Origin: an uncultured Tessaracoccus sp.
GTDB taxonomy: Bacteria; Actinomycetota; Actinomycetes; Propionibacteriales; Propionibacteriaceae
Length of the DNA: 64,000 nucleotides
Assembly: GCF_943914565.1 (NCBI RefSeq)
Contig: NZ_CALUCN010000003.1
Location: forward strand, 97,054-161,053
Direction: 5' to 3'
Position numbers and translations under genes: made by a program. Positions 6,760 through 46,483 of this stretch are shown here, piece after piece. The stretch's first letter is position 1, and each line of letters begins with the position of its first letter. A model generated the notes under the pieces. The model was not told where the DNA came from, made no database searches, and was given only the letters and a program-made list of their open reading frames with translations.

Positions 6760-6912
6760 TTCTTGGGGGTTGAAGGGGAGAACTGGAGTCGAGCAGGTGC
6801 AGCTCCATGAAGCTGCGCTGCGGTACTCTGGAGTGGAGCATCTGTTCTGCTCATCGCTCATCGCGGTGGCAGTACCTGGACTGAGGCCTTGGGTATCTGA
6901 GGAGGGGCTGAG

Positions 6913-7263
6913 ATGAGCTCTACCAAGTTCGTCATTCGCATGATCACGGTTGACTGTGAGGACCCAGCGCGGCTTGCGGCGTTCTGGTCTCAAGCCACGG
7001 GGTGCCCTGTAGCTGCTGACTACGGTGACTTCGTCATGGTTGGTTCTGTTCCGGCGCTCGGGTTCCAGCGTGTCCCGGAAACAAGGTCTGGAAAAAACCG
7101 CATTCACTTCGACGGTGGTGGAGAAGACCGTGAAGTCTTGGTTCGTCGGCTCCGTGACCTTGGGGCGACCGAACACGAGACTCGCAGCGTTCCCGGGCTG
7201 ACGTGGACTGTCATGACCGATCCAGAAGGCAACTACTTCTGTGTTGGTAACCCCGAGGGATGA
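6913..7263 (+). CDS. VOC (glyoxalase/bleomycin-resistance fold) family protein
   Basis: 116 aa with the typical VOC pattern. Good SD (GAGGAGG) before the ATG. Lies in a region of clearly lower GC than the surroundings. Confidence 0.75.
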   Translation: MSSTKFVIRMITVDCEDPARLAAFWSQATGCPVAADYGDFVMVGSVPALGFQRVPETRSGKNRIHFDGGGEDREVLVRRLRDLGATEHETRSVPGLTWTVMTDPEGNYFCVGNPEG

Positions 7264-7429
7264 GTACTGTGGGGATGCTCAGCCTGTAATCAGGCAGCGT
7301 GAGCTGTCCATGCAGCCTCACAAGCGGCGATCTTCGCACGTGATAGCTCTATCCATCAAAACTCAGTGGAGTTCCAGTTTACCGTATAGCGATGTTGACT
7401 CAATGCGTCATGTTTGGTCCGTTGGAGGG

Positions 7430-7765
7430 GTGATCAGATCCTTCGGCGACCGTGACACGGAGCTTGTGTAGTTGCGTGAACGGGCTCGGCGGATCGATCC
7501 GAGAATCCATGAGACGGCGAACCGGAAGCTGCATCAGTTGGACGCTGCCGTGTCGCTCAACTCGCTTCGGGTCCCTCCACGCCGGATCGACGAGATTGTG
7601 CATGGCAAGCGGGCGATCACGGCCGACACGGCACTGCATCTGGGGCGCTACTTCGGTGTGGAGCCGCAATTCTGGCTCAACCTGCAGTCGCGCTACGAGC
7701 TCGAGCCGGCGGCGGATCGAGTGGCCGATCAGATCGCTGCCATCGCGCCGCTGCAGACGGCATGA
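7430..7765 (+). pseudogene. higBA: higB-higA remnant: HigB toxin N-terminus fused in frame to HigA antitoxin C-terminus, with an amber codon at 7469-7471
   Basis: VIRSFGDRDTELV-stop-...ARRIDPRIHETANRKLHQLDAAVSLNSLRVPP matches the HigB (PF05015) N-terminal half. It continues directly into PRRIDEIVHGKRAITADTALHLGRYFGVEPQFWLNLQ, the HigA-family HTH C-terminus. The HigB catalytic C-half and the HigA N-half are absent. Confidence 0.55.
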
Positions 7766-7786
7766 TGGTGCCGAAACTTGGGGCTG

Positions 7787-8111
7787 CGCCACTCTGGGGT
7801 CGCGTCGCCGTGGTCACGGGTGTGAGCCGGCGGCAGGGGCATTGGATAGGCGAGTGCGGTGCGGTTGGCGGCGGCTGGCGCTGACCTCTTCATCACTCAT
7901 CATCGTGCTCATGACGAATCTCAGCCGCGCGGTCTTGATGACGTCGGGGGCAGGGACTCGGGCCTCTGTCTGGAGACGTTGCCTACGGGGCGTCCAATGT
8001 GGGGATGTCGGGAATCACACTGACCTTGGCCGACCAGCTCTCCGACGATGGCATCACGCTCAACACCGTGAATCCGCGCCCGGTCGATACTGGCTACATG
8101 ACGCCTTCGTG
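7787..8111 (+). pseudogene. short-chain dehydrogenase/reductase (SDR) remnant, frameshifted with a large internal deletion
   Basis: Three frames carry SDR pieces: GRVAVVTGVSRRQGIG (Rossmann N-terminus), VRLAAAGADLFITHH, and AYGASNVGMSGITLTLADQLSDDGITLNTVNPRPVDTGYM (YxxxK region to C-terminal PG motif). Only about 320 bp remain of an expected ~750 bp. Confidence 0.5.
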
Positions 8112-8221
8112 ATGTATCCAAGTGCCTGAAGGTGGTCGAGTTCAGGTTCAGTCGTTGGTTCCTGCTCTCCAACCGGCATGTGATCGTCGGGCGATGTCCC
8201 GCCCGGGGATCACATGCCACT

Positions 8222-8640
8222 TCAGTCGAGGGCGCGCAGGGGTTCGAACACTCGCGGATGGCGGTGGTCGAAGCCGGCAATGGGCTGCTGGCGGTCCAGT
8301 CCGGCGATCGTGGACATCTCGTCCTTGGCGAGTTCGAAGTCGAAGAGGTCGATGATGGCGGCGAGGCGATCCGGGTGCGTCGACTTGGCAACTGCTGCTA
8401 CCCCGCGCTGCACGTGCCAGTGCAGGATGACCTGCTGCATCGGTCTGCGTGACCAGGTCGAGGTAGTCGGTGTCGAGTGCGCAGGGAGTCCTCGAAGGCC
8501 TGCGGCACGGCCCGCTGCCGACCCAGCACGGTCAACGGCGCGTGAGCGTGGGTCACGGGAACGGGCCTCCTTCCAGCAAACGGATGCTTCTTGACGCCAC
8601 CGACCCTGCCGGCGAGGAACCCGTTCCCCTACCCCAACAC
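8222..8640 (-). pseudogene. aldo/keto reductase remnant (frameshifts and internal deletion)
   Basis: AFEDSLRTLDTDYLDLV (AKR LGTDYIDLY motif) in one frame. QQVILHWHVQRGVAAVAKSTHPDRLAAIIDLFDFELAKDEMSTIAGLD (AKR C-terminal ALAW...NLAALDLELS region) in another. About 420 bp instead of ~1 kb. Confidence 0.5.
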
Positions 8641-8669
8641 AGTGACTACAACGTCACAGGGAAGTACAT

Positions 8670-9008
8670 CTAGAGGTCCAGCAGTAGGCCAAGCACCTCG
8701 CGAATCTCAGCGAGCAGGGCTGGTCCCACTGCACCCCGGGTGGCGATGAGTCGTTCGACGGAGATTGATCGCACGTGTTGGCACTGGGCGGCTGATGGCG
8801 CCTTGAGCTGGTTCTCCTTGTCTGGCTCAACGTACACTTCCGCGCCGCTGGACCGAATGGTCCGGGTCAGCGGGACAACCTGCACCACGTTCGGCTTGCC
8901 TCGCAGTACGCCAGTGGCGGTTACGACCACGGCTGGTCGCCGGAGGCCCGCCTCGCTCCCGATCGGGGTGCCAAGATCGACCTCGACGATGTCACCCGAG
9001 GTCAGCAT
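8670..9008 (-). CDS. mazF: type II toxin MazF/PemK family endoribonuclease
   Basis: GDIVEVDLGTPIGSEAGLRRPAVVV and downstream conserved blocks typical of MazF/PemK. Start at internal Met, overlapping the antitoxin 3' end. Confidence 0.8.
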   Translation of the reverse strand: MLTSGDIVEVDLGTPIGSEAGLRRPAVVVTATGVLRGKPNVVQVVPLTRTIRSSGAEVYVEPDKENQLKAPSAAQCQHVRSISVERLIATRGAVGPALLAEIREVLGLLLDL

Positions 9009-9189
9009 CGAGCCAAGTCTCTTCCTCATCGGTGAGCTTGGCGCTCAACTCCTGCCCCATCGACAGCTGCCTCAACGCACGCAGGGCCCGATCGACCGTC
9101 TGGTCGATGGTCTCGTGGCGTTGCTGGGCCAACCTCGTGATGCGGCTGTGTGTCTGGCGGCTGACCCGGATGGTGGTGGTGTCGCGCAT
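8992..9189 (-). CDS. mazE: MazE-like antitoxin (small DNA-binding protein)
   Basis: 65 aa ORF immediately upstream of and overlapping mazF by 17 bp. Basic N-terminus (RVSRQTHSRITRLAQQ) and acidic C-terminus, as expected for an antitoxin. Confidence 0.6.
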   Translation of the reverse strand: MRDTTTIRVSRQTHSRITRLAQQRHETIDQTVDRALRALRQLSMGQELSAKLTDEEETWLDADLG

Positions 9190-9206
9190 GAGTCCAGCCT
9201 ACCGCG

Positions 9207-9226
9207 TGTAGACAACATGGTCTACA
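9207..9226. promoter_or_regulatory. candidate mazEF operator: inverted repeat TGTAGAC-N6-GTCTACA
   Basis: Perfect 7-bp inverted repeat centred about 25 bp upstream of the mazE start. Confidence 0.4.
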
Positions 9227-9476
9227 TGGGAGGTGGTGCGACGAACAGCTTGGCGGGTTCGGCTCCGGACGTTCTGCTTCGCCCGCCGGGTGGTTCAAGG
9301 CGGCCGCGCGCAGATGGTTCTTCACGTGGGGGTGCGGTGGAGTTCCGCTTCACCGTGTGCGTACGTGGGTCTGGGGGCACGCACGCCTCGGCGTAGGTCT
9401 GGTCGTGGCGTGCGCGTGGCGCGCGGCCCAGCCGTCCTGGGAGCGGGCTGCATGCTGTGGCCAAGGGCTCCGCCGC

Positions 9477-9755
9477 TCAGGCGACGCGGGAGCCGTAACG
9501 CTGGCGGGCTGCTTCACCGGAGGTGCCGACGAAGGTGCCGATGTTCGCCCAGGACATCCCCGAAGCGCGTGCGCTCCTGACCGCTTCGAGCAGATGTCGT
9601 TCAGCGGCTGATTGTTCGGCCACGGCGTCGCGGAGTCGACGGATGGCCGAAGGGTCGAGTTCGTGCTCAGCGTCGGGTTCGTAGTTCTCGAACCGTGCGG
9701 CGAGCTCGTCGGCATGAGCCAGGATCTGCTCGACTGTGCGCGGCATGGTCATCAC
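9477..9755 (-). CDS. small HTH-containing protein, putative antitoxin of the upstream toxin-like gene
   Basis: 92 aa. Acidic N-half, C-terminal HTH-like segment (SGMSWANIGTFVGTSGEAARQRY). 4-bp overlap with the upstream gene. Last gene of a three-gene overlapping operon. Confidence 0.5.
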   Translation of the reverse strand: MMTMPRTVEQILAHADELAARFENYEPDAEHELDPSAIRRLRDAVAEQSAAERHLLEAVRSARASGMSWANIGTFVGTSGEAARQRYGSRVA

Positions 9756-10102
9756 CTCAGAAACCTCTCACGGGCTCGCGTCGCATGGACGATGACGAAG
9801 GCGGTGGAGCCCTGGACGTAGCCGACCTCAAGGAAGAGGGCGGCCTGATTGGGGCCGACGATCATCGTGAACCCGTCCCCAAGATCCCAAGCGCGCAGGG
9901 GGTTCCTGTAGGCGTGAAGGATCTCGTCTTCCGTCAGCCCGGGCCCCAGTGCTGACTGGGCGATGATCGGCTCGTCCACGATTCCAAGGTACCTTGTCGT
10001 TGTGTCGGGCTCAACGGCGAGGGTGGTGCGTCGTCCGGGAGTCTCGGATGCGGGGTGCTTGGCCAGAGATGCCGACGCGTCCGCGATAACGACGTCGCTC
10101 AC
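9752..10102 (-). CDS. DUF497/BrnT-like (RelE-fold) putative toxin
   Basis: C-terminal 70 aa (AYRNPLRAW...FTMIVGPNQAALFLEVGYVQGSTAFVIVHATRARERF) resembles the BrnT family pattern (F-DP ... VV-T-R-...IRIISARKA..E), recalled from memory. GTG start overlapping the upstream stop (GTGA). The six-frame ORF is longer but its upstream part is GC run-on. Confidence 0.5.
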   Translation of the reverse strand: MSDVVIADASASLAKHPASETPGRRTTLAVEPDTTTRYLGIVDEPIIAQSALGPGLTEDEILHAYRNPLRAWDLGDGFTMIVGPNQAALFLEVGYVQGSTAFVIVHATRARERFLR

Positions 10103-10593
10103 CCGATCATGTAGGCGAGGCCCAGCCCACGCGTCGCTATGTCCCGTGCGAACGTGCGCGCCTGGCCGAAGTATTCGAGGAAGTAGTCGCGGTCGTCTTC
10201 GTCCAACGTCGCGCAGAAGGCGTCGAGCTCCTCGGGCGTGACGCTGTCCAGGTCGTCCGCGATGGCTGCGACGGTGGCCACGTCGAGCACGGCGAGGTGC
10301 GGGTCCCAGGCCCGGTCGGTCAGCACCAGCGTGACCTGCCCCTGGAACAGCTGATACGCAGGGCGCGCCTCGCCCCCGTCGGGCCAGCTGAAGCGTTGCA
10401 GGATGGACCAACACTTGTCGAGGTAGAGCATCTCCGGCTTCGGGCGGTCGGTGAAGGCCCAGTGGTGCTCGTCGATGGGCTCGAGGCCCCACGCATCGGC
10501 GAGCGGGTCATCGGACATGACGCACCACGGGTCGCGCCGAGCGGCCTCCACCATGGCGGGTTCGACTGGATAGGCGTAGTAACGGATTCCCAT
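10099..10593 (-). CDS. DUF1877 (YfbM-like) family protein
   Basis: Starts MGIRYYAYP (YfbM-like MGM-GYF start). LDKCWSILQRF and the C-terminal DYFLEYFGQ...G pattern resemble the YfbM family, recalled from memory. First gene of the three-gene operon. Confidence 0.55.
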   Translation of the reverse strand: MGIRYYAYPVEPAMVEAARRDPWCVMSDDPLADAWGLEPIDEHHWAFTDRPKPEMLYLDKCWSILQRFSWPDGGEARPAYQLFQGQVTLVLTDRAWDPHLAVLDVATVAAIADDLDSVTPEELDAFCATLDEDDRDYFLEYFGQARTFARDIATRGLGLAYMIG

Positions 10594-10736
10594 GTCTGCA
10601 AGATGGCAGTGGCGAAGGCCTGCTGCCCGCGCAGCGGCGAATCTGTGGAGAACTCCACGGCCGAGCACCCCGCAGGCCTCGCGCGCTGCTCTGGCGTGAC
10701 GAGCCCCGGGATTCGGGAACTGGGCCGCGGTTCTGC

Positions 10737-13633: not shown

Positions 13634-14614
13634 TCAGACCCCCAGCCCGCCGTCAGCCGGAATCTCGGCGTCGGGGGTGCCCTCGGGGCGGGCCCAGCCG
13701 TCCTCGACCCGCTCGCGGGCGATCGCCTCGAGCCGGTCGAGGGCGTCGAAGGTCTCCACCCGTGACTTCTCCACGGTGACCGCACCGCCGACCGCACCCT
13801 CGATGATCGCGAGTCGCCGCGCCCGCAGCCGCGCCTCGAGGAAACGCCCGTCCTTCTCCAGGTACATGCGGCCCCACTCGGCCATGTTCTCGTCGAACAA
13901 CTCGTGGAACCAGCTGTTGTCCTCCTTCGACTCCTCGCCGAACTCCTCGTCGTCGAACTCGTTCTCGTCGGGGTCGGGGCTGACCGGGTCGATGTGGGGG
14001 TGCCATGTCATGGGGACGACGAGCACGCCCTCCGACGAGTCGTCCGGCCGGTGCGGGAGGTCGTGCTGGCGCAGGGCCTCGACCACGCGTCGCTCCAGCT
14101 CCTCGTCGTTGCCGCTCAGACTCCGGTACAGGATGATCACGTCGACGGGACCCAGGTGCAGGTCCTCGACCATCTGGAAGTGGGTGATGACCGCGCCGAG
14201 GTCGTCCTCGTCGTCGTCCATCTCGGCCCACTCGGTGAACTCCTCGACCACGATGCCCTGCGCACGCAACTCGTCGAAGGCCGCGCCCAGCCGGTCCACG
14301 TCGGTGGTCTCTCCGTCCCAGGCGCGGGTGCGGCGGGCGGTGTCGTTCCACACCGCCCGGACGAAGCGTTCGACGTAGGTCAAGCGCTCGTCGTCGTCCT
14401 CGATGGAGTCGAGCTGGTCGATCCATGTGTCGGGATCGGGATAGGTCTCGGGGTCCTCGAAGAGGGGATAGGCGATCTCCTCCGGTGGCTCGGAGCACGC
14501 GAGTACATCTGCGCGCACGGCCTCGACGAGGGTGGAAAGCTCGGGATCGGAAACAAGGTCAGCGGGATTCACGTTGGTCATGCGCCCAGTCTGTATGGCG
14601 CCCCGGGTCACCAT
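13634..14614 (-). CDS. hypothetical highly acidic protein
   Basis: 326 aa ORF (alternative start at Met-12, 14581). Very acidic with D/E runs. Co-oriented with the SMI1/KNR4 gene. No recognisable catalytic motif. Confidence 0.55.
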   Translation of the reverse strand: MVTRGAIQTGRMTNVNPADLVSDPELSTLVEAVRADVLACSEPPEEIAYPLFEDPETYPDPDTWIDQLDSIEDDDERLTYVERFVRAVWNDTARRTRAWDGETTDVDRLGAAFDELRAQGIVVEEFTEWAEMDDDEDDLGAVITHFQMVEDLHLGPVDVIILYRSLSGNDEELERRVVEALRQHDLPHRPDDSSEGVLVVPMTWHPHIDPVSPDPDENEFDDEEFGEESKEDNSWFHELFDENMAEWGRMYLEKDGRFLEARLRARRLAIIEGAVGGAVTVEKSRVETFDALDRLEAIARERVEDGWARPEGTPDAEIPADGGLGV

Positions 14615-14657
14615 CCACAGATCCCGGCACCCACGTTCGACAGATGACTGGCCGTGC

Positions 14658-15551
14658 CTACTCCTCGTGCTCGCCGCGCAGGTTCATCAGGAACTCGGGC
14701 AGACTGGTGCCCAGTTGCTGGAACGGCTCCGCAGTGTTGTCCACGAATGGTTGGAACCACACCTCGTCCTCGGCGTCGTACGTGAACGGGAAGACCGGGT
14801 CCCAACCACCCACGACGATCGCCCCGGGCCAGATCGCCCGGATCGCGGCATCCCAGGGATGGCGGTCGACGATCTCCTGCACCGAGAGCAACTCGACGCC
14901 GATCTCACGACCCCACGGGCGGATCCGCAGCGGGCCCTCGTATCCGTCCGTGCGCTCGAGGACGGCACGGAGATCGGCGGGCAACCGGACCCCGAGGGCA
15001 GCCTCGGCCCTCTCGATTGCCGCGGGGGAGGCGCCGTCACGGAAGGCCGACGGGTCGAGCGCGTCGAGCGGGTCGACGGGGATCTCGCCGGGGTAGGACA
15101 CCACCGTGCCGTGCCGGCCCGACGGCTCCTCGTCGGCCCGGGCGACGACCTGCGCGAGCAGGTCAGCGAACGAGCCTGCGCACTGGTCGAGCACGTCGCC
15201 TGATCCGAGGTCGACGTCGAGGTAGCGCGGTCCGTCCTCGCCCTGGTGCAGGATCCAGCGCCAGCTGTCCGCGCCTGCGACGGCGATCCCCAGCTCCTCG
15301 ACCGTGTCGTGGCCCATGTCCTCCTCGACGCCGTCGGCGTCGTTCACGGGGAAGTACTGCACCGACGTGCCGTCCGGCCGGAGCAGATCCCCGGCGTAGC
15401 CGCCGAAGCGACGCACGGCGTCGACGTAGTCCGGTGGCAGTGGGTGACCGAACAGGGTCGCGATGCGCGCCAGGTCCTGCTCGTCGCAGCCGGCCACCTC
15501 CTCGTCGGGCTCGAAGAAGCGGGTGAGGTCGTCCGGATCCGTCGCTGTCAT
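14658..15551 (-). CDS. SMI1/KNR4 family protein (tandem SMI1 domains), immunity-protein-like
   Basis: Two copies of the SMI1/KNR4 signature (LARIATLFGHPLPPDYVDAVRRFGG and AIERAEAALGVRLPADLRAVLERTDG). Acidic protein. Start at the internal ATG. Confidence 0.7.
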   Translation of the reverse strand: MTATDPDDLTRFFEPDEEVAGCDEQDLARIATLFGHPLPPDYVDAVRRFGGYAGDLLRPDGTSVQYFPVNDADGVEEDMGHDTVEELGIAVAGADSWRWILHQGEDGPRYLDVDLGSGDVLDQCAGSFADLLAQVVARADEEPSGRHGTVVSYPGEIPVDPLDALDPSAFRDGASPAAIERAEAALGVRLPADLRAVLERTDGYEGPLRIRPWGREIGVELLSVQEIVDRHPWDAAIRAIWPGAIVVGGWDPVFPFTYDAEDEVWFQPFVDNTAEPFQQLGTSLPEFLMNLRGEHEE

Positions 15552-15637
15552 GCGTGCAGCGTAGGCAGAGAGGTGGGTCACCCATGGGACGGTTCGAGTG
15601 ATCGGCCTGGCCACGGACGCCTCCTCGGACGCTGCGG

Positions 15638-16005: not shown

Positions 16006-16027
16006 GTTCACCGATTCGTCACCTTCG
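16006..16027 (+). promoter_or_regulatory. PHO box (PhoP direct-repeat units GTTCACCGATT / CGTCACCTTCG)
   Basis: Two 11-nt direct repeat units with the GTTCACC core, about 90 bp upstream of the alkaline phosphatase ATG. Weaker GTTCCC/GTTTCG units lie just upstream. Confidence 0.5.
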
Positions 16028-16115
16028 CGTACTGAGACGTTTCCTCGACAGGGCTTGGATGGTCACCGCAGGCGCTGTGTGCCCACGTCGGGCACCCCCA
16101 TCGAGCAAGAAGGAA

Positions 16116-19100
16116 GCCATGTCCACTCGCCCATCCAAGCATCGTGCCGCCCCGCTGGCGGCGCTCGCGTTGACCGGGATGATCGGGTCGTTGATGCTGA
16201 CGACGCCCTCCGGGGTCGCCGCAGACGGTGACACGACCCGTGCCTACAACGGCCCCGAGTCCTGCGTGACGATCGACGGCGACGGCAACGTCGTCGCGCC
16301 CGGTCCGGGCGACTGTGCCCAGTTCGGCAAGGCCGGCCAAGGGCGCACCGACAAGACCGCCCGCAACGTCATCCTCATCATCGGCGACGGCATGGGCCAG
16401 CAGGAGATCACCGCGGCCCGCAACTACCTCAAGGGTGCCGCCGGTCGCTTCGAGGGCATCGACGAACTCACCAGCGAGGGCCACTACACCCACCACTCGA
16501 TCGACCAGGACGGCAGCGTCAACTACGTGACCGACTCGGCCGCCTCGGGCACCGCGTGGTCGACGGGTACCAAGACCTACAACGGTGCGCTCGGCGTCCA
16601 GATCGACGGCACTCCGGTGCCCAACACGATCGAGCTCGCGAAGCTCGCCGGTATGCGCACGGGCAACGTCTCCACCTCTGAGATCCAGGACGCCACCCCG
16701 GCCGCCCAGGGATCGCACGCGATCGGCCGGAAGTGTTACGGCCCGGAGAACACCAAGTCTGCGAACAAGGGCTGCTTCGGCGACGTCTACAACCAGCAGT
16801 ACCGCGAGAACGGCGGTCTCGGCTCGATCTCCGAGCAGCTCGTCGAGACCCGCGCCGACGTCACCCTGGGCGGCGGCTCGAAGGCGTTCGACCAGATCGT
16901 GCAGCAGGGTGGCGAGGGCCGCAACCCGTACCTCACCGCCGACAAGGGCATGAAGCAGACGACGTGGACCGAGGGCAAGTCGGTCCTCGACAACGCCAAG
17001 GACAACGGCTTCCAGGTGGTGAACACCGCCGAGGAGTTGAAGGCCGTCCGGGAAGCCAACCAGGACCAGCCGCTGCTCGGCCTGTTCCACCCCGGCAACA
17101 TGACCACGCGATTCGCACCGCACCAGGCCACCGTCGGTGGCGCGAAGAAGGCCCCGGTGGAGTGCAAGAAGCAGGACATCGGCACCGAGCCCGAGCTGCC
17201 GCTCATGGCCAACAAGGCGATCGAGCTGCTCGACGACCCCACCGCAGACAAGGGCTTCTTCCTCCAGATCGAGTCCGCGTCGATCGACAAGCGGGCCCAC
17301 GGCTCCGACATCTGCGGTCAGATCGGTGAGACCGAGCGCCTCGACGAGGTCACCAAGGCCGCGCTCGACTTCGCCAAGAAGGACGGCGAGACGCTCGTCG
17401 TCGTGACCGCCGACCACTCGCACACCACCCAGATCGTCTACGACGAGGCCGACAACGTCTCGGCGACGGCGCGCGTCCTCACCAAGGACGGCACCCCGAT
17501 GACCGTGTCCTACGGCACCATCCCGACCGAGGCGATCGCCGACGGCTCGACGCAGCACACCGGCGCGCAGCTGCGTGTCGCCGCGTTCGGACCCGGCGAG
17601 GAGAACGTCCTCGGCCAGACCGACCAGACCGACCTCTTCTACACGGTGCTGAGCGCGCTCGACCTGAACCCAGACAAGGCCAAGGGCGCGTCGGAGTCCG
17701 GTCTGGGCAAGCCCGTCGCGGCGTCGAACCCGAACGAGACCTGCTTCAAGGTCGACGCCAACGGCAAGGTCGTCGCACCGCTGCCCGGTGAGTGTGCGCA
17801 GTACGGCACCACCGGTGAGCAGCGTTCCGACGCGCAGGCGAAGAACGTGATCCTGTTCATCGGCGACGGCATGGGCGACTCCGAGATCACCTCGGGCCGC
17901 AACTACCTCTACGGCGCCAACGGCAAGCTGCCCGGCATCGACGCGCTGCGCTACACCGGGTCCTACACCCACTGGGCGCTCAGCAAGAAGACCGGCAAGC
18001 CCGACTACGTGACCGATTCCGCGGCCTCCGGCTCCGGCTGGGCCACCGGCACCAAGACCTACAACGGTGCGATCAGCGTCGGCCTCGACGGCACGCCGCG
18101 GGCCAACCTCCTCGAGATGGCCAAGGCCAAGGGCATGAAGACCGGCAACGTCTCCACCGCGGAGATCCAGGACGCCACCCCGGCCGTGATGGGCTCGCAC
18201 TCGCTCAACCGCAAGTGCTACGGCCCCGAGCAGGACAAGAACTCCGGCTCCTGCCAGACCGAAGCGACCGCGTCGCAGTTCCGTGAAAACGGCGGCCTCG
18301 GCTCGATCTCCGAGCAGCTCGTCGACACCCGCGCCGACGTCACCCTCGGCGGCGGCGCGAAGGCCTTCGACCAGACGGTCCAGGTGAGCGGCACCGCCGG
18401 CAGCACCCAGTGGACCAAGGGCAAGACCGTCCTGCAGAACGCGAAGGACAACGGCTTCAAGGTCGTCACCGACGCGGCGCAGCTGAAGGGCGTCACCTCG
18501 GCCGATCAGAACACGCCGGTGCTCGGCCTGTTCTCGCCGGGCAACATGCCGCGCAACTTCCTGCGCAGCATCCCCACCGCCGACGGCGCCCAGCGCGACG
18601 CGGAGGAGTGCAAGGTGAACCCGGATCGGACGGCCGCCGTTCCGACGCTGGCCGACATGACCGCCAAGGCACTCGAGCTCCTGCCCAACGAGAAGGGCTT
18701 CTTCCTGCAGGTGGAGGGCGCGTCGATCGACAAGGCCGACCACGCCTCCGACATCTGCGGCCAGATCGGTGAGCTCGACGACCTCGACCAGGCGGTGCAG
18801 GTGGCCCGCAAGTGGGTGGCCAAGAGCGGTGAGCCGACCCTCATCGTCGTGACCGCCGACCACGCGCACACGTCGCAGATCGTCGCCAACGGCCCGCTCA
18901 CGTCGGGTCTCGTGACGAAGCTGCGCACCGTCGACGGCGATGACATGAGCGTCAACTACGCGACGGCCGCGACGAACCAGGCCGCCGTCGAGTCCGAGGC
19001 GTCCACCCACACCGGTGCCCAGCTGCGCATCGCGGCGGAGGGCCCGTCGGCGGAGAACGTCATCGGCTTCACCGACCAGACGGACCTGCACTTCACGCTG

Positions 19101-19475
19101 GCCAACGCGCTGAGCCTCCCGACGTCGGTCCAGGCCGGCATCCCGTTCGTCCCCCAGGGCGACACGGACCCGACCCCCGACCCGGACCCGAGCGAGCCGA
19201 ACCCGTCGCCGGACCCGAGCGAACCTTCCTCGTCGCCCGCGCCCAGCGAGCCCGGTGCGGCGAGCCCGTCCCCGGCGCCGAGCGAGCCGACCGACCCGAC
19301 GGCGAGCCCCGCCCCGTCGGAGAGCCCGGCTCCGTCGGAGAGCCCGACGCCCGCTGACCCGTCGAAGCCTCGTCCCGGGCTGCCCGGGACCGGCGCCGAC
19401 GGCGGCTCCACCGGTGCGGCGTTCGTGCTGTTCCTGCTGGGCGGCGCCGCGCTGATCGGCCGACGCCGGAAGTGA
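16116..19475 (+). CDS. phoA: cell-wall-anchored tandem double alkaline phosphatase (two PhoA-family domains, Pro/Ser-rich stalk, LPXTG sortase signal)
   Basis: Signal peptide. Two roughly 500-aa PhoA-like domains, each with DGMG, DSAASG(T/S)(A/G)W(S/A)TG(T)KTYNGA, ADHSHT/ADHAHT and HTGAQ motifs. C-terminal PDPSEPSP-type repeats then LPGTG, a hydrophobic stretch and RRRK. Strong SD GAAGGAAG. Confidence 0.85.
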   Translation, partial: AMSTRPSKHRAAPLAALALTGMIGSLMLTTPSGVAADGDTTRAYNGPESCVTIDGDGNVVAPGPGDCAQFGKAGQGRTDKTARNVILIIGDGMGQQEITAARNYLKGAAGRFEGIDELTSEGHYTHHSIDQDGSVNYVTDSAASGTAWSTGTKTYNGALGVQIDGTPVPNTIELAKLAGMRTGNVSTSEIQDATPAAQGSHAIGRKCYGPENTKSANKGCFGDVYNQQYRENGGLGSISEQLVETRADVTLGGGSKAFDQIVQQGGEGRNPYLTADKGMKQTTWTEGKSVLDNAKDNGFQVVNTAEELKAVREANQDQPLLGLFHPGNMTTRFAPHQATVGGAKKAPVECKKQDIGTEPELPLMANKAIELLDDPTADKGFFLQIESASIDKRAHGSDICGQIGETERLDEVTKAALDFAKKDGETLVVVTADHSHTTQIVYDEADNVSATARVLTKDGTPMTVSYGTIPTEAIADGSTQHTGAQLRVAAFGPGEENVLGQTDQTDLFYTVLSALDLNPDKAKGASESGLGKPVAASNPNETCFKVDANGKVVAPLPGECAQYGTTGEQRSDAQAKNVILFIGDGMGDSEITSGRNYLYGANGKLPGIDALRYTGSYTHWALSKKTGKPDYVTDSAASGSGWATGTKTYNGAISVGLDGTPRANLLEMAKAKGMKTGNVSTAEIQDATPAVMGSHSLNRKCYGPEQDKNSGSCQTEATASQFRENGGLGSISEQLVDTRADVTLGGGAKAFDQTVQVSGTAGSTQWTKGKTVLQNAKDNGFKVVTDAAQLKGVTSADQNTPVLGLFSPGNMPRNFLRSIPTADGAQRDAEECKVNPDRTAAVPTLADMTAKALELLPNEKGFFLQVEGASIDKADHASDICGQIGELDDLDQAVQVARKWVAKSGEPTLIVVTADHAHTSQIVANGPLTSGLVTKLRTVDGDDMSVNYATAATNQAAVESEASTHTGAQLRIAAEGPSAENVIGFTDQTDLHFTLANALSLPTSVQAGIPFVPQGDTDPTPDPDPSEPNPSPDPSEPSSSPAPSEPGAASPSPAPSEPTDPTASPAPSESPAPSESPTPADPSKPRPGLPGTGADGGSTGAAFVLFLLGGAALIGRRRK

Positions 19476-19543
19476 CCCACCCGACGAGCCCGGGGGCAGC
19501 GCGAGGCGCCGCCCCCGGGCCGTCCCGTCCCACCAGGAACCCC

Positions 19544-20320
19544 ATGTCCACACCCCACTCCGTCCGCGCCCGCAGAACCGCCGTCGGGCAGTCACTCGCC
19601 AGCACCTGCCTGCTCGCGCTGGCCACCGTGTTGTTCGGCATGCTCACCTCCGGGCGGTTCACCAACTACCTCCAGGCCTGGTTCCGGCCCTACCTGCTCG
19701 CCGCCACCCTCGTGATGATCGCGCTCGCGCTGTGGTCCCTGTTGACGACGAGCGACGCCCTCGAGGACGCAGCCGAGCAGGACGGGACGGACGACGAGGG
19801 GCGGCCGGGCGGGCACCAGCACGCCACGCCGAAGGTGAGCGCCCTGCTCCTCGTGCCCGCGCTCGTGTTCGCCGTCGCAGCCCCCGCAGCGCTCGGCACC
19901 GACGCGGCCACCCGACAGGACGCCGCCCAGCCGCGCCGTGTCGTCGGCGCCGAACCGGTCGACTTCACGCCGCTGCCCGCGCAGGGCGTCTCCGAGCTCA
20001 CCGTGCAGGACTACGCGGACCGCTTCACCTGGGGCAAGCCCGAGGACCTCGTCGACAAGCACGTCCGCATGCTCGGGTTCGTCGCGAAACCGAAGGACGA
20101 CGCCGACGGCCACTGGAGCGTCAACCGGTTCCGCATCTACTGCTGCGCCGCCGACGCCAACCTCTACAGCGTCGCGGTCTCCGGCGCCGACATGCCCGAG
20201 GGCGAGAACGTCTGGGTGCAGGTGGAGGGATTCCTCGACGAGGACGCCAGCACCGAGATGCCGGTGCTCGCCGCCACCGACGTGCAGGTGGTCGGGGAGC
20301 CGGAGGAACCCTACCTGTGA
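19544..20320 (+). CDS. TIGR03943/DUF1980 family membrane protein (partner of DUF318 permease)
   Basis: Two N-terminal TM helices followed by a soluble domain with the Cys-pair region (RIYCCAADANLYSVAV), typical of YcgQ/DUF1980 proteins. Start at the internal ATG. Confidence 0.65.
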   Translation: MSTPHSVRARRTAVGQSLASTCLLALATVLFGMLTSGRFTNYLQAWFRPYLLAATLVMIALALWSLLTTSDALEDAAEQDGTDDEGRPGGHQHATPKVSALLLVPALVFAVAAPAALGTDAATRQDAAQPRRVVGAEPVDFTPLPAQGVSELTVQDYADRFTWGKPEDLVDKHVRMLGFVAKPKDDADGHWSVNRFRIYCCAADANLYSVAVSGADMPEGENVWVQVEGFLDEDASTEMPVLAATDVQVVGEPEEPYL

Positions 20321-21291
20321 GCACGTTCCTCCGAGTCTGGCTCGCGCCCTTCGTGGCCGTGGCCGCACTGCTCCTGCTCCTGCGCACGCTCGACACCGAC
20401 GGCCCGCTGCTCGTGCTCGAGGGCGCGGCCTCGACGTTCGGCACCCTGCTGCTGGCCATCGTCGTGCAGGCCGTCCCGTTCCTCGTCCTCGGCGTCGTCG
20501 TCTCCGGTGCCATCGCCGCCTGGATGCCGAAGGACGTGCTGTCGAGGGTGACGCCCCGATCGCCGATGCTCGCGGTCCCGACCGCCGGCGTCGCCGGCAT
20601 GGTGCTGCCCGGGTGCGAGTGCGCGTCGGTGCCCGTCTCGCAGTCCCTCATGCGACGTGGGCTGCCGCAGGCTGCCGCGCTCGCCTTCCTGCTGGCCGCG
20701 CCGGCGGTGAACCCGATCGTGCTCGTCGCCACCGCCGTCGCGTTCCAGGGCAACCAGACGATGGTCTGGGCGCGCTTCGTCGCCTCGCTGCTCGCCGTCG
20801 TCGTGATCGGTTGGGCGTGGGTGATCCTCGGCCGTGAGGAGTGGATGAAGTCGCAGGGCGGACACGAACCCGACGACGTCCCGCGCAGCGAGGTGTTCCG
20901 TGAGACCGCGGTGCACGACCTGCTCCAGGCGGGCGGATTCCTCGTCGTCGGTGCCGCCGCGGCCGCGTTCCTCAAGGCGTTCGTGCCGACGTCGGTGCTC
21001 ACCACGCTGGGCGACCACCCCTGGTTGGCGGTGCTCGCGATGGCGGGGCTCGCCGTCGCGCTGTCGCTGTGCTCCGAGGCCGATGCGTTCGTCGTCTCGT
21101 CGCTCACGAGCGTGTCCCCGACGGCGCAGCTGGCGTTCCTCGTGGTCGGGCCGATGGTGGACATCAAACTCTTCGCCATGCAGTCCGGCGCGTTCGGCAC
21201 GAAGTTCGCGACGCGGTTCATGCCGCTGACGCTCGTGGTGTGCATCGGCGCGTCCGTCCTCGTCGGGCGGCTCATCTTCGGGACGTTCTGA
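20317..21291 (+). CDS. DUF318 family predicted permease
   Basis: Polytopic membrane protein with the GCECASVP motif characteristic of the DUF318/YraQ permease family. GTG start overlaps the upstream stop (GTGA). Confidence 0.75.
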   Translation: MSTFLRVWLAPFVAVAALLLLLRTLDTDGPLLVLEGAASTFGTLLLAIVVQAVPFLVLGVVVSGAIAAWMPKDVLSRVTPRSPMLAVPTAGVAGMVLPGCECASVPVSQSLMRRGLPQAAALAFLLAAPAVNPIVLVATAVAFQGNQTMVWARFVASLLAVVVIGWAWVILGREEWMKSQGGHEPDDVPRSEVFRETAVHDLLQAGGFLVVGAAAAAFLKAFVPTSVLTTLGDHPWLAVLAMAGLAVALSLCSEADAFVVSSLTSVSPTAQLAFLVVGPMVDIKLFAMQSGAFGTKFATRFMPLTLVVCIGASVLVGRLIFGTF

Positions 21292-21329
21292 GTCGTTCGT
21301 GCTCCCGTGCGCACGGCACCGACCCGCCT

Positions 21330-21346
21330 GGTATCACGGTGATACC
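21330..21346. promoter_or_regulatory. candidate phd-doc operator: perfect inverted repeat GGTATCAC-G-GTGATACC
   Basis: 8-1-8 palindrome ending immediately 5' of the antitoxin ATG. Confidence 0.45.
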
Positions 21347-21559
21347 ATGCTGGGTATGGCCATGACGCTGCGACTCACTCCCGCCGACGAGGAGCTCCTC
21401 GCCCAGCTCGCCGAGCAGGACGGCATCAGCCGTCACGAAGCAACGCTTCGAGCCATTCGTGAGGCCGCGGCGAGGCAAGGGCACGAATCCGAGGTGGCGA
21501 ACGCGTCGGCACGCGCCCGCGACCGCTACGCAGCGCTGTTGGAGCGGCTCGGGCAGTGA
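21347..21559 (+). CDS. ribbon-helix-helix antitoxin (Phd-like partner of Doc)
   Basis: 70 aa. The N-terminal MAMTLRLTPADEELLAQLAEQDGISRHEATLRAIRE is an RHH/CopG-type DNA-binding motif. 4-bp overlap with doc. Confidence 0.65.
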   Translation: MLGMAMTLRLTPADEELLAQLAEQDGISRHEATLRAIREAAARQGHESEVANASARARDRYAALLERLGQ

Positions 21560-21918
21560 CGCGGTACCTGTCCACCGAGGACCTGCTCCAGCTGGTCGTG
21601 GACCTCGGCGTGGGGCCGATCTGTGACCTGGGTCTGTTGGAGTCCGCGGCGGCACGCCCGCGAGCGTCCCTGTTCGGCGACGACGCCTACCCATCGCTCC
21701 CGGAGAAAGCAGCGGCACTCCTGGAGTCGCTGGTGCGCAACCATGCGCTGGCGGACGGGAACAGGCGGCTGGGTTGGTTGGCCGCCGTCGTGTTCCTGGA
21801 CGTGAATGGGGTCTGGCTCGAGGCGCCCGATGACGAGGCGTACGACCTGGTCATCGGCGTGGCCAGTGGCCGGGTGGCGCTGCGGCAGGTCACCGTGGCA
21901 CTCAGGCGATGGATGTAG
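21556..21918 (+). CDS. doc: Doc (death-on-curing) Fic-family toxin
   Basis: Fic motif HALADGNRRLG (HxFx(D/N)GNKR) and overall similarity to P1 Doc. GTG start. Confidence 0.85.
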   Translation: MTRYLSTEDLLQLVVDLGVGPICDLGLLESAAARPRASLFGDDAYPSLPEKAAALLESLVRNHALADGNRRLGWLAAVVFLDVNGVWLEAPDDEAYDLVIGVASGRVALRQVTVALRRWM

Positions 21919-45073: not shown

Positions 45074-46483
45074 TCAGTCCAGTGGCTCGGCCGGGACGGC
45101 GGGCGGGTCGCTCAGCAGCACCTTCTCGCCCATCGCGGCGACGACGGCCATGATCCCGAGTTCGTCCTCGATGCGGCGCTCGAGCGCCTCGGCCGCCTGC
45201 GGCTCGCCGTGGGTGAGGTAGACGGTCTCGGGTGCGGGGTCGAGGGCCGCGACCCAGGCGACGAGCTCGGAGGCGTCGGCGTGCCCGGAGAACTCGCGGT
45301 CCTGGACCACGTCGGCGCGGCGGGGCACGTGGCGGCCGAAGAGCTTCACGTGCCGGGCCCCGTCGACGAGCGCCCGACCGCGGGTGCCCTCGGCCTGGAA
45401 GCCGGTGAGGATGACGGCGTTGCGCGGGTCGGGCAGGAGCTGCTGCAGGTGGGCGAGCGCGCGGCCGCCCTCGAGCATGCCGGAGCTGGAGACGATGATG
45501 CGCGGGTCCTTGCGGCGACGCACCTTGCGCGACTCGCCGGCGGTGCGGGTCTCGATGAAGTGCGAGCTGGCGGTGAAGCCGCTCATGCGCACCTCGTCGC
45601 GGAACTCGTCGGGCATGTCGCGGTAGACGTCGAGGGCCTTCATGCTCATCGGCCCGTCGATGATGACCGGCACCTCGGGGATGCGCCCGTCGGCCTGCAT
45701 CTCGGCGAGCTCGTACATGATCGCCTGCGTGCGATCGATCGCGAACGCAGGGATCAACACCGAGCCGCCGCGGGCGATGGTGCGGTTGATCGTGGTGACG
45801 AATTCCTCGTGGGGCACCGCCGGCTCGGCGTGCTCACGGTCGCCGTAGGTCGACTCGCACACCACCCAGCGCGCGCCGGCGGGAGTGTCGCGGGGACGGA
45901 GCAGCTTGTGGTCCGGACGGCCGAGGTCGCCCGAGAACAGCACCGCGACGTCGTCGACCGTGAGGTGCACGCTCGCCGAACCCAGGATGTGGGCCGCGCG
46001 CGTCCACCGGGCCGTGACCCCGTCGAGGACCTCGACGTCCTCGTCGAAGTCGACGCGGCGCAGCTGCCGGACGGCGCGTTGCGCGTCGCCGGTGGTGTAG
46101 AGCGGGCGAGGCTCGGCGTGCTTGGAGTAGCCGCCGCGGATGGCCTGCTCAGTGGCGAGCTCCTGGAGGTGCGCGGCGTCGAGCATCACGATCTCCGCGA
46201 GGCGCGCGGTGGCGTCGGTGCACCACACGGGGCCGGTGAACCCCTGGTTCACGAGGGCGGGCAGGTAGGCGGTGTGGTCGGCGTGCGCATGGGTGAGGAC
46301 GACCGCGTCGATCGTCGCGGCGTCGACGGGGAAGTCGGCCCAGTTGCGCTCTCGGAGGGCCTTCTCGCCCTGGAACATGCCGGCGTCGAGCAGGATGCGA
46401 CGGTCACCGGCCTCGACGAGGTACTTCGAGCCGGTCACGGTGCCGGCGGCGCCCAGGAACTGCAGGGTCACGGAATCAGCCAT
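45074..46483 (-). CDS. MBL-fold metallo-hydrolase with beta-CASP/RNA-specificity domain (RNase J-like)
   Basis: HxHxDH motif (THAHADH), beta-CASP motifs downstream. Confidence 0.8.
   Translation of the reverse strand: MADSVTLQFLGAAGTVTGSKYLVEAGDRRILLDAGMFQGEKALRERNWADFPVDAATIDAVVLTHAHADHTAYLPALVNQGFTGPVWCTDATARLAEIVMLDAAHLQELATEQAIRGGYSKHAEPRPLYTTGDAQRAVRQLRRVDFDEDVEVLDGVTARWTRAAHILGSASVHLTVDDVAVLFSGDLGRPDHKLLRPRDTPAGARWVVCESTYGDREHAEPAVPHEEFVTTINRTIARGGSVLIPAFAIDRTQAIMYELAEMQADGRIPEVPVIIDGPMSMKALDVYRDMPDEFRDEVRMSGFTASSHFIETRTAGESRKVRRRKDPRIIVSSSGMLEGGRALAHLQQLLPDPRNAVILTGFQAEGTRGRALVDGARHVKLFGRHVPRRADVVQDREFSGHADASELVAWVAALDPAPETVYLTHGEPQAAEALERRIEDELGIMAVVAAMGEKVLLSDPPAVPAEPLD

What the first reader, a model, noticed from the sequence alone, without database searches (positions are those of the whole stretch)
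16006..19475. PHO-box-preceded, sortase-anchored tandem double alkaline phosphatase
A single 1119-aa secreted protein contains two complete PhoA-family catalytic domains. Each has intact active-site motifs (the DSAASG Ser nucleophile and the metal ligands). The two domains share long near-identical DNA stretches, which points to a fairly recent internal duplication. A Pro/Ser-rich stalk and an LPGTG cell-wall sorting signal follow. Canonical PhoP direct-repeat units (GTTCACC core, 11-nt spacing) lie about 90 bp upstream. Doubling the catalytic domain on a wall-anchored stalk is unusual for PhoA-type enzymes.
Basis: partly seen in the sequence, partly recalled or inferred. Interest (0 to 1): 0.6.

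Follow-up and report, generated by a model that had tools for sequence, protein, structure and literature searches.

The report
Wall-anchored tandem double alkaline phosphatase
This is a real gene for a secreted, cell-wall-anchored phosphate-scavenging enzyme with two complete, intact alkaline-phosphatase domains, but the doubling is ancient and shared by dozens of related bacteria, so it is a member of an existing, unstudied family.

Summary
Window 16119-19475 (+) is one uninterrupted 1118-aa ORF. It has a Sec-type signal peptide, two full PhoA domains, a Pro/Ser-rich stalk of about 85 aa, and an LPGTG + hydrophobic + RRRK sorting signal.

Each domain is 54-56% identical to E. coli PhoA. Each keeps all 12 catalytic and metal-binding residues and both disulfide cysteine pairs.

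The "recent duplication" reading is wrong. D1 and D2 are 55% (aa) and 66% (nt) identical, the longest identical DNA run is 29 nt, and synonymous sites are saturated. All D1s and all D2s form separate clades (100/100 bootstrap) across Propionibacteriaceae, Actinomycetaceae and Corynebacterium. That points to one ancient duplication, with both active sites kept in 64/65 D1 and 65/65 D2.

The PHO-box-like repeat (GTTCACC-N4-CGTCACC) is weak statistically within the window. It is conserved at -113 in orthologous promoters whose flanks have diverged.

AlphaFold gives pTM 0.85 with an ordered linker, so I infer a single-chain pseudo-dimer of an enzyme that normally works as a homodimer.

One new point: a Cys-motif DUF1980/ArsP_1 permease pair follows the gene in 20 of 53 double-domain loci and in none of 33 single-domain loci.

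Verdict: new member of a known kind, moderate interest.

The parts
16006..16027 (+). PHO-box-like element: two 11-nt direct-repeat units, GTTCACCgatt and CGTCACCttcg
   Evidence: Read directly from the sequence. The exact pattern occurs once in the window. The same repeat sits at -112 to -115 from the ATG in L001, L003, L005, L006, L008, L009 and L010, although the flanks have diverged. PhoP binding has not been tested.
16039..16060 (+). Possible further in-phase unit (GTTTCCT, 33 nt after unit 1) and candidate -10 region (TTGGAT; orthologues have GATGrGAT)
   Evidence: Partly conserved columns in alignment A2. This is inference only. The sigma-70 consensus scan found no promoter and no transcription start is mapped.
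16110..16116 (+). Ribosome-binding site AAGGAAG
   Evidence: Read from the sequence. AAGAAAGG is conserved before the ATG in orthologues.
16119..19475 (+). Coding sequence of the tandem double PhoA (1118 aa plus stop)
   Evidence: ORF and GC3 of 0.92. The start agrees with the 97%-identical P0001 (1117 aa), and M1 is nearly invariant in A1.
16119..16223 (+). Sec-type signal peptide (aa 1-35; basic N-region, hydrophobic core, V-A-A then D36)
   Evidence: Read from the sequence. pLDDT is below 50 for aa 1-36. There is no twin-arginine motif and no lipobox cysteine.
16227..17666 (+). Domain D1 (aa 37-516): N-terminal Cys hairpin C49/C66 plus the PhoA catalytic core, nucleophile S140
   Evidence: All 12 catalytic residues are present.
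17667..17729 (+). Inter-domain linker (aa 517-537)
   Evidence: phmmer domain limits. Mean pLDDT is 75-88 over aa 521-560, so it is predicted to be ordered.
17730..19121 (+). Domain D2 (aa 538-1001): Cys hairpin C542/C559 plus the PhoA catalytic core, nucleophile S634
   Evidence: phmmer against E. coli PhoA chains in the PDB gives E=7e-133.
19125..19379 (+). Pro/Ser-rich stalk (aa 1003-1087; 33% P, 20% S)
   Evidence: Composition. pLDDT is below 50 from aa 1025 onward. Short PSEP-type DNA repeats appear (families D8, D10).
19380..19472 (+). Cell-wall sorting signal: LPGTG, hydrophobic segment, RRRK tail
   Evidence: Relatives carry LPxTG, MPKTG, LAxTG, a plain TM anchor or an SLH domain at the same place.
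19483..19524 (+). Strong GC-rich hairpin without a U-tract, between the phoA stop and the next gene
   Evidence: MFE -41.4 kcal/mol, z = -4.3. Hairpins of -42 to -50 kcal/mol with different sequences occupy the same place in L003, L005 and L006. A role as terminator, attenuator or stabiliser is inferred.
19544..20320 (+). DUF1980 / TIGR03943 putative permease subunit, with the invariant CCAADA motif
   Evidence: Pfam PF09323 and PF21537. TIGR03943 scores 128 bits against a cut-off of 88.8. Motif conservation is shown and linkage to the double PhoA.
20317..21291 (+). ArsP_1 (PF03773) permease with the invariant LPGCECASVP motif; its start overlaps the DUF1980 stop (GTGA)
   Evidence: Pfam 186 bits. 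It has a weak, below-cut-off resemblance to SO_0444 Cu/Zn efflux transporters (78 bits against a cut-off of 300). The motif is shown. The start is inferred from the 324-aa orthologue in L001.

Best explanation
The gene encodes a phosphate-scavenging exoenzyme of a Tessaracoccus-like member of the Propionibacteriaceae.

**Export and anchoring.** The pre-protein is exported unfolded through Sec. It is oxidised outside the membrane, with three cysteine pairs per domain. A sortase then cuts it at LPGTG and links it to peptidoglycan. The disordered Pro/Ser stalk of about 85 aa lets the catalytic body reach through the wall.

**Catalytic body.** The body consists of two PhoA domains, both catalytically competent. 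They arose from one ancient tandem duplication and have been kept under purifying selection ever since. PhoA is active only as a dimer, so I infer that D1 and D2 pack against each other as an intramolecular pseudo-dimer. One polypeptide with one anchor would then give a complete two-site enzyme without having to find a second tethered chain.

**Regulation.** Transcription is most likely switched on under phosphate limitation. A PhoP-type response regulator would bind the conserved 11-nt direct repeats centred about 105 nt upstream of the ATG.

**Shown:** ORF integrity, two intact domains, the ancient duplication, the tripartite sorting signal, conservation of the repeat, and a confident rigid two-domain prediction.

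**Inferred:** pseudo-dimer geometry, sortase processing, PhoP control, and enzyme activity.
For: **Two full PhoA domains**
- Searches detect two full domains.
- All catalytic and metal residues and all cysteines are present in both.
- Those residues are kept in 64/65 D1 and 65/65 D2 across the family.

**Ancient duplication**
- D1 and D2 are 55% (aa) and 66.5% (nt) identical, with saturated synonymous sites.
- The D1, D2 and D1+D2 clades each have 100/100 bootstrap support.

**Pseudo-dimer**
- AF2 gives pTM 0.85 and mean pLDDT 86.8 with about 130 disordered residues. That is about the ceiling for two rigidly placed domains; my estimate for one placed domain is about 0.5.
- The linker pLDDT is 75-88.
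- E. coli AP is a homodimer, and the monomeric T59R mutant is 1000-fold less active (PMC9912328).
- The T59 equivalent is kept in 64/65 D1 and 65/65 D2, and R62 in all.
- In P0061, D1 has lost 9 of 12 catalytic residues yet is retained full length in 4 independent contigs. That fits a structural role as dimer partner.
- Both domains replaced the E. coli-type N-terminal arm with a Cys hairpin that is absent from 55 single-domain relatives.

**Anchor:**

**PHO box:** it sits at a conserved position (-112 to -115) in 8 promoters, counting the window, whose flanks have diverged.
Against: - I could not inspect the coordinates or the PAE of the model. That the D1:D2 packing matches the E. coli dimer is inferred from pTM only.
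- Single-domain actinobacterial PhoAs are also wall-anchored (54/56). Tethering alone therefore does not force a fusion.
- Within the window the PHO-box match is not significant. The second unit is imperfect, no transcription start is known, and PhoP sites have not been characterised in Propionibacteriaceae.
- No sortase gene lies in the window. No LPXTG HMM hit was reported.
Confidence: 0.7

Rival explanations
1. Beads on a string. The two domains do not pair with each other. Each pairs with a domain of another chain, giving inter-chain dimers or chains on the wall. The duplication simply doubles the number of catalytic sites per anchor.
For: Single-domain anchored PhoAs evidently dimerise between chains. 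The 48 residues between the two cores would be long enough to allow freedom.
Against: A pTM of 0.85 and an ordered linker argue for a fixed intramolecular arrangement. A catalytically dead but full-length D1 is retained in P0061, which is hard to explain if D1 only adds sites.
Confidence: 0.2
2. Subfunctionalised domains. D1 and D2 have diverged to prefer different substrates, for example small monoesters versus nucleotides or polymer-bound phosphate. The fusion would then broaden the substrate range.
For: D1 and D2 form deep, separate, well-conserved clades. D1 carries a conserved insertion of about 11-17 aa (GGxxRNPFL...TxW) that is absent from D2 and from E. coli PhoA. This reading is compatible with the pseudo-dimer model.
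Against: All first-shell active-site residues are identical in both domains, including R166, D153 and K328. No substrate data exist.
Confidence: 0.3
3. The upstream direct repeat is not a Pho box. It would be the site of another OmpR/PhoB-family regulator or a chance match, and the gene would be expressed constitutively or under a different signal, such as metal or envelope stress.
For: Within the window the match is not significant. The second unit matches GTTCACC at only 5 of 7 positions. The downstream genes look metal-related.
Against: The position and core are conserved in 8 promoters, counting the window, whose flanks have diverged. PhoA genes are classic Pho-regulon members, and the core equals the Streptomyces PhoP consensus as I recall it.
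Confidence: 0.25
4. Artefact. The tandem arrangement would be an assembly error, or a fusion of two adjacent genes by a frameshift or a lost stop.
For: None found.
Against: The same architecture occurs in 64 protein clusters and 47 species-representative genome loci, including complete chromosomes. The domains are only 66% identical in DNA, so assembly collapse or expansion is implausible.
Confidence: 0.01

Closest known systems
E. coli PhoA (periplasmic alkaline phosphatase; PDB 1ALK, 1ED8 and others)
   Same: Each domain is 54-56% identical to it over about 440 residues. The Ser nucleophile, R166, the Zn1, Zn2 and Mg ligands and both disulfides are conserved. The NCBIfam equivalog NF007810 is matched.
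   Different: E. coli PhoA has one domain per chain and is a soluble homodimer. It has an N-terminal arm where each domain here has a Cys hairpin. It has no stalk and no wall anchor.
Unstudied double-PhoA proteins of Tessaracoccus/Propionibacteriaceae, Actinomycetaceae and Corynebacterium (database name "alkaline phosphatase"; P0001-P0064)
   Same: They share the same D1-D2 architecture. Orthologous D1 and D2 clades are 52-98% identical in full-length alignment A1. All carry a C-terminal surface tether.
   Different: The tether type varies. The window has LPGTG, its closest relatives have MPKTG or MPRTG, and others have LAxTG, a TM helix or an SLH domain. Only some carry the DUF1980/ArsP_1 pair.
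Single-domain wall-anchored PhoA of Microbacteriaceae, Cellulomonas and others (P0066-P0120)
   Same: They have a signal peptide, a PhoA core, a stalk and an LAxTG/LPxTG signal. They form the sister group of the D1+D2 clade.
   Different: They have one domain and an E. coli-like N-terminal arm. None has the Cys hairpin, and none of the 33 loci has the DUF1980/ArsP_1 pair.
Streptomyces PhoP PHO boxes (11-nt direct-repeat units with a GTTCACC core; recalled from the literature, not checked here)
   Same: Two adjacent 11-nt units are present. The first has an exact GTTCACC core, and they lie upstream of a phosphatase gene.
   Different: This is a different family (Propionibacteriaceae). The second unit is imperfect, and the regulator, binding and transcription start are all untested.
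Dedicated metal export for exoenzyme metallation (TerC-family MeeF/MeeY for Mn in B. subtilis; ZnT5-7 for vertebrate alkaline phosphatase; recalled, not checked here)
   Same: This is only an analogy for the DUF1980/ArsP_1 pair: a membrane transporter genetically coupled to a secreted metallo-enzyme.
   Different: The protein families are unrelated. The substrate and direction of transport are unknown here.

Membership tests
PhoA-type alkaline phosphatase (Pfam PF00245; NCBIfam NF007810) | Profile match above the curated cut-off, over the full length of the model | tested here: met
   PF00245 scores 594.6 bits against a cut-off of 24.4, and the best stretch covers model positions 1-422 of 423. 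NF007810 scores 1117 bits against 540 in 2 stretches. phmmer with E. coli PhoA finds aa 56-516 and 565-1000.
PhoA-type alkaline phosphatase (Pfam PF00245; NCBIfam NF007810) | Ser nucleophile, the phosphate-binding Arg, and the ligands of two Zn and one Mg, in each domain | tested here: met
   D51, S102, D153, T155, R166, E322, D327, K328, H331, D369, H370 and H412 correspond to D90, S140, D191, T193, R204, E385, D390, K391, H394, D432, H433 and H480 in D1. In D2 they correspond to D583, S634, D685, T687, R698, E866, D871, K872, H875, D914, H915 and H964.
PhoA-type alkaline phosphatase (Pfam PF00245; NCBIfam NF007810) | The two structural disulfides of E. coli PhoA (C168-C178 and C286-C336) | tested here: met
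   All four cysteines align in both domains. C286 and C336 are invariant in the family, while C168 and C178 are kept in about half of the relatives.
PhoA-type alkaline phosphatase (Pfam PF00245; NCBIfam NF007810) | Phosphomonoesterase activity of each domain | not testable with these tools
   This needs enzyme assays of the S140A and S634A variants.
Sortase-anchored surface protein (LPXTG sorting signal) | N-terminal signal peptide, and a C-terminal LPXTG followed by a hydrophobic stretch and a basic tail | tested here: met
   The N-terminus reads MSTRPSKHRAAPLAALALTGMIGSLMLTTPSGVAA|D. The C-terminus reads LPGTG-ADGGSTG-AAFVLFLLGGAALIG-RRRK.
Sortase-anchored surface protein (LPXTG sorting signal) | Match to a curated LPXTG-anchor profile | tested here: not met
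   No anchor model was listed at E<=0.01 in Pfam or NCBIfam. These short models often miss actinobacterial signals, so this only weakly counts against membership.
Sortase-anchored surface protein (LPXTG sorting signal) | A cognate sortase in the genome, and covalent wall linkage | not testable with these tools
   No TLxTC sortase motif occurs in any plausible ORF of the 64-kb window. The rest of the genome is not available.
Pho regulon promoter (PhoP-type PHO box) | At least two 11-nt direct-repeat units with a GTTCACC-like core upstream of the gene | tested here: met
   16006-16027 matches 12 of 14 core positions.
Pho regulon promoter (PhoP-type PHO box) | More than a chance occurrence | tested here: inconclusive
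   In the window the pattern occurs twice against 0.43 expected. Conservation at -112 to -115 in seven orthologous promoters with diverged flanks supports function.
Pho regulon promoter (PhoP-type PHO box) | PhoP binding and induction by phosphate starvation | not testable with these tools
   This needs EMSA or footprinting and qRT-PCR.
Double-PhoA family (D1-D2 tandem, Actinomycetota) | D1 groups with other D1s and D2 with other D2s; both carry the N-terminal C...PGDCAQ hairpin | tested here: met
   NJ tree and bootstrap of 100/100 for each clade. C49 and C66 are invariant, and C542 and C559 are conserved in at least 90% of A1.

The most novel reading that the evidence does not exclude
The double PhoA would be a single-chain pseudo-dimer that is inherited together with a dedicated metal-delivery system. 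The downstream DUF1980 (CCAADA motif) and ArsP_1 (LPGCECASVP motif) proteins would form a two-component thiol-lined permease. It would export Zn2+ to the wall zone to load the four Zn sites of each newly secreted enzyme under phosphate starvation. That would be a bacterial counterpart of the ZnT-dependent activation of vertebrate alkaline phosphatase.

The conserved hairpin between the genes would set a high-PhoA, low-permease expression ratio.
Probability: 0.15. Interest if true: 0.65.

Novelty: new member of a known kind. Interest (0 to 1): 0.35.

Why it matters
PhoA is a textbook obligate homodimer and a standard reporter enzyme. A natural single-chain version would be a ready-made example of how tethered exoenzymes meet the need for a dimer. 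It is conserved across Corynebacterium, Actinomycetaceae and Propionibacteriaceae, many of them human skin, urogenital and oral commensals. It could also serve as a scaffold for a single-chain PhoA reporter.

The linkage with an uncharacterised Cys-motif permease pair gives a testable lead to the function of DUF1980/TIGR03943, and to how Gram-positive bacteria metallate secreted zinc enzymes.

For the window itself, the gene is an ordinary member of that family.

Tried and rejected
1. **Recent duplication or gene conversion.** Rejected by the codon-level comparison and the tree.
2. **Assembly or fusion artefact.** Rejected by the wide occurrence of the architecture.
3. **Pseudo-domain.** Rejected for the window, where both sites are intact. 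One relative, P0061, does have a dead D1.
4. **Sortase gene in the window.** None found.
5. **Conserved 5'-UTR hairpin.** The consensus fold is weak, with an unfavourable covariation term (+2.33 in a total of -9.98 kcal/mol). The window's own segment folds no better than shuffles, z = -0.07. Dropped.
6. **Sigma-70 consensus promoter.** None found. This is uninformative for a high-GC actinobacterium.
7. **Rfam scan of the window.** No hits.
8. **Literature.** I searched for tandem PhoA, DUF1980, TIGR03943, COG3689/COG0701 and ycgQ/PF03773. Nothing relevant turned up in the held library.
9. **Other Pho-regulon genes in the window.** The window ORFs scanned with Pfam contain no pst or phoU gene and no response regulator.
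10. **Model coordinates.** I could not obtain them, so the D1:D2 interface geometry was not compared with the E. coli dimer.


Full report
**1. Observation**

The region holds one uninterrupted ORF. The biologically sensible start is the ATG at 16119, preceded by AAGGAAG. This gives 1118 aa ending at the stop 19473-19475. The finding's start, 16006, is the first base of the upstream repeat, not of the gene. The start agrees with a 97%-identical database protein of 1117 aa.

- Pfam PF00245 scores 594.6 bits. The NCBIfam PhoA equivalog NF007810 scores 1117 bits in two stretches.
- phmmer with E. coli PhoA delimits D1 as aa 56-516 and D2 as aa 565-1000.
- In a three-way alignment with mature E. 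coli PhoA, all twelve catalytic and metal residues are present in both domains. These are D51, S102, D153, T155, R166, E322, D327, K328, H331, D369, H370 and H412. The four disulfide cysteines are present too.
- The C-terminus is an 85-aa stalk (33% Pro, 20% Ser) followed by LPGTG, a hydrophobic stretch and RRRK.
- The N-terminus is a Sec-type signal peptide.

**2. The duplication is old, not recent**

- D1 and D2 are 55% identical in protein. That equals their distance to E. coli PhoA, 54% and 56%.
- Over 475 aligned codons the DNA identity is 66.5%, and third positions are 62.7% identical.
- Identical residues use the same codon in 72.5% of cases, against 67.8% expected from codon usage.
- The longest identical run is 29 nt, and it lies on conserved motifs.

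So there are no long near-identical stretches.

A protein search found 64 clusters with the same two-domain architecture (about 1030-1270 aa). They come from Propionibacteriaceae, Neoactinobaculum, Boudabousia, Actinomyces, Arcanobacterium, Ancrocorticia and many Corynebacterium species. A genome scan found 47 such loci in GTDB species-representative genomes. The closest, at 77-79%, are Tessaracoccus and Propionibacteriaceae MAGs, so the window comes from a Tessaracoccus-like propionibacterium.

In an NJ tree of 187 domains, all D1s form one clade and all D2s another. Together they are sister to single-domain actinobacterial PhoAs. Bootstrap support is 100/100 for each of the three nodes in a 63-sequence subset. 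That means one ancient duplication.

Both active sites have been maintained, in 64/65 D1 and 65/65 D2. The single exception is P0061, whose D1 has lost 9 of 12 residues but is still full length. It is seen on four independent contigs.

**3. How the two domains probably work together**

E. coli alkaline phosphatase is a homodimer, and its monomeric T59R mutant is 1000-fold less active (PMC9912328). The T59 equivalent is kept in 64/65 D1 and 65/65 D2, and R62 is kept in all.

AlphaFold2, run with a 50-sequence alignment, gives mean pLDDT 86.8 and pTM 0.85. About 130 residues are disordered (signal peptide and stalk). The inter-domain segment has pLDDT 75-88. By my estimate a model with only one confidently placed domain would score about 0.5, and 0.85 is about the ceiling for two rigidly placed domains. 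The prediction is therefore a fixed D1:D2 body.

Two further observations fit this:
- Both domains have replaced the E. coli-type N-terminal arm with a Cys hairpin (C...PGDCAQ). This hairpin is absent from 55 single-domain relatives.
- P0061 retains a catalytically dead D1.

I infer an intramolecular pseudo-dimer: one chain and one anchor give one complete enzyme. I could not inspect coordinates, so the geometry is an inference.

One point weakens the idea that tethering forced the fusion. Single-domain relatives are also wall-anchored, 54 of 56.

**4. Regulation**

GTTCACCgattCGTCACC lies at 16006-16023. It has the 11-nt periodicity and the core of Streptomyces PhoP boxes; I recalled that consensus and did not check it.

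Within the window the evidence is weak. The a-priori pattern with up to 2 mismatches occurs twice, against 0.43 expected. The second hit is a palindrome inside a gene.

Phylogenetic footprinting is stronger. In L001, L003, L005, L006, L008, L009 and L010 the same repeat (GTTCAY[C/G]-N4-[C/G]GTCAY) sits at -112 to -115 from the ATG, while the surrounding sequence has diverged. A related repeat, GTTAACC-N4-GGACACC, occurs in Propioniferax.

Control by a PhoP-type regulator is therefore likely but untested. No promoter matched the sigma-70 consensus, and no transcription start is known.

**5. Surroundings**

A DUF1980/TIGR03943 gene (19544-20320) and an ArsP_1 permease gene (20317-21291) lie immediately downstream on the same strand.

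- This trio is conserved in relatives whose outer flanks differ.
- The pair follows the double PhoA in 20 of 53 loci: Tessaracoccus-like genomes, nine Corynebacterium species and Arcanobacterium hippocoleae. It follows none of the 33 single-domain loci.
- DUF1980 is only 30-37% identical across families. Even so, the motifs R[FY][RK]I[YF]CCAADA and LPGCEC[ASG][SA]VP (LPGCECASVP in 11 of the 13 loci) are kept in all 13 trio loci checked. That suggests a thiophilic-metal site.
- The permease resembles Cu/Zn efflux transporters only weakly, 78 bits against a cut-off of 300.
- A strong hairpin without a U-tract separates phoA from the pair (-41 kcal/mol, z = -4.3). Its structure, but not its sequence, is conserved in orthologues. 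This is probably a terminator or attenuator, or a 3' stabiliser with partial read-through.

A role in supplying Zn to the secreted enzyme is an attractive hypothesis, but it is unproven. I found no literature on these families.

The rest of the window is ordinary chromosome: YchF, a PMT-type glycosyltransferase, an ABC-F protein, MgtE, ArsA, a sugar-type ABC transporter, narGHJI and transketolase. There are no pst or phoU genes, no sortase and no Rfam hits.

**6. Comparison and verdict**

The protein is a bona fide PhoA-family enzyme, twice over. It carries a classical tripartite sortase signal. It belongs to an existing family of double PhoAs that is widespread in databases and annotated only as "alkaline phosphatase".

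I found no paper describing the tandem architecture in the held library. The family is thus known to databases but not studied.

The finding is real. Its headline inference of a recent duplication and an unusual arrangement is not supported. The more interesting points are the likely single-chain pseudo-dimer and the conserved link to a Cys-motif permease pair.

- Novelty: new member of a known kind.
- Interest: 0.35.

Noticed in passing
window 19544-21291; also L001-L003, L005-L010, L018, L020-L023, L025, L047, L048, L050, L051, L053: A DUF1980/TIGR03943 gene and an ArsP_1 permease gene follow the double PhoA in 20 of 53 loci across three actinobacterial families, and in none of 33 single-domain PhoA loci. 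The motifs CCAADA and LPGCEC are kept in all 13 trio loci checked although overall identity is low. They may form a metal (Zn?) transporter coupled to the enzyme.
   Followed up: partly
window 19483-19524; L003 about 8248-8301; L005 about 8221-8265; L006 about 8266-8310: A very stable GC-rich hairpin without a U-tract lies between the phoA stop and the DUF1980 start (-41 to -50 kcal/mol, z -3.7 to -6.4). Its structure is conserved but its sequence is not. It is probably an intercistronic terminator, attenuator or mRNA stabiliser.
   Followed up: partly
protein P0061 (loci L087 4001-7192, L088 2467-5658): This double-PhoA relative has lost 9 of 12 catalytic residues in D1 (DSDTREDKHDHH has become DAGFVEADATHA), yet D1 is still full length. 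D2 is intact. It is seen on four independent contigs and is a natural half-dead variant.
   Followed up: partly
protein P0065 (731 aa), compared with P0011 (Neoactinobaculum massilliense, 1208 aa): This single-domain protein has the N-terminus of P0011's D1, while its core groups with P0011's D2. It looks like a D1/D2 recombinational deletion or an assembly collapse of the tandem.
   Followed up: no
C-termini of P0002-P0007 (closest relatives, 77-81% identical): Where the window has PGLPGTG, these proteins have PGMPKTG or PGMPRTG, followed by the usual hydrophobic and basic tail. This is an unusual Met-first sorting motif. P0016 has MARTG.
   Followed up: no
window 21299-21918, compared with L001 7254-7263; window 13634-15614, compared with L001 342-1868: The window has a Fic/Doc toxin gene with a small upstream ORF between the permease and the ABC-F gene. 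The 97%-identical relative L001 lacks it. Upstream of phoA, L001 instead carries PIN and PemK toxin modules where the window has SUKH (SMI1/KNR4) and DUF6891 genes. The flanks of the trio are variable.
   Followed up: no
window about 6800-10700: This stretch has lower G+C (0.63-0.65, against about 0.70). No ORFs with high GC3 were found, and the three longest ORFs (7452-8129, 8740-9396, 9752-10492) have no Pfam hits. It may be foreign or non-coding DNA.
   Followed up: no
window 46235-46252 (-): A palindrome, GTGAACCAGGGGTTCACC, lies inside the beta-CASP/metallo-beta-lactamase RNase gene (45074-46483). It is the only other window hit to the PHO-box pattern and is probably chance.
   Followed up: no
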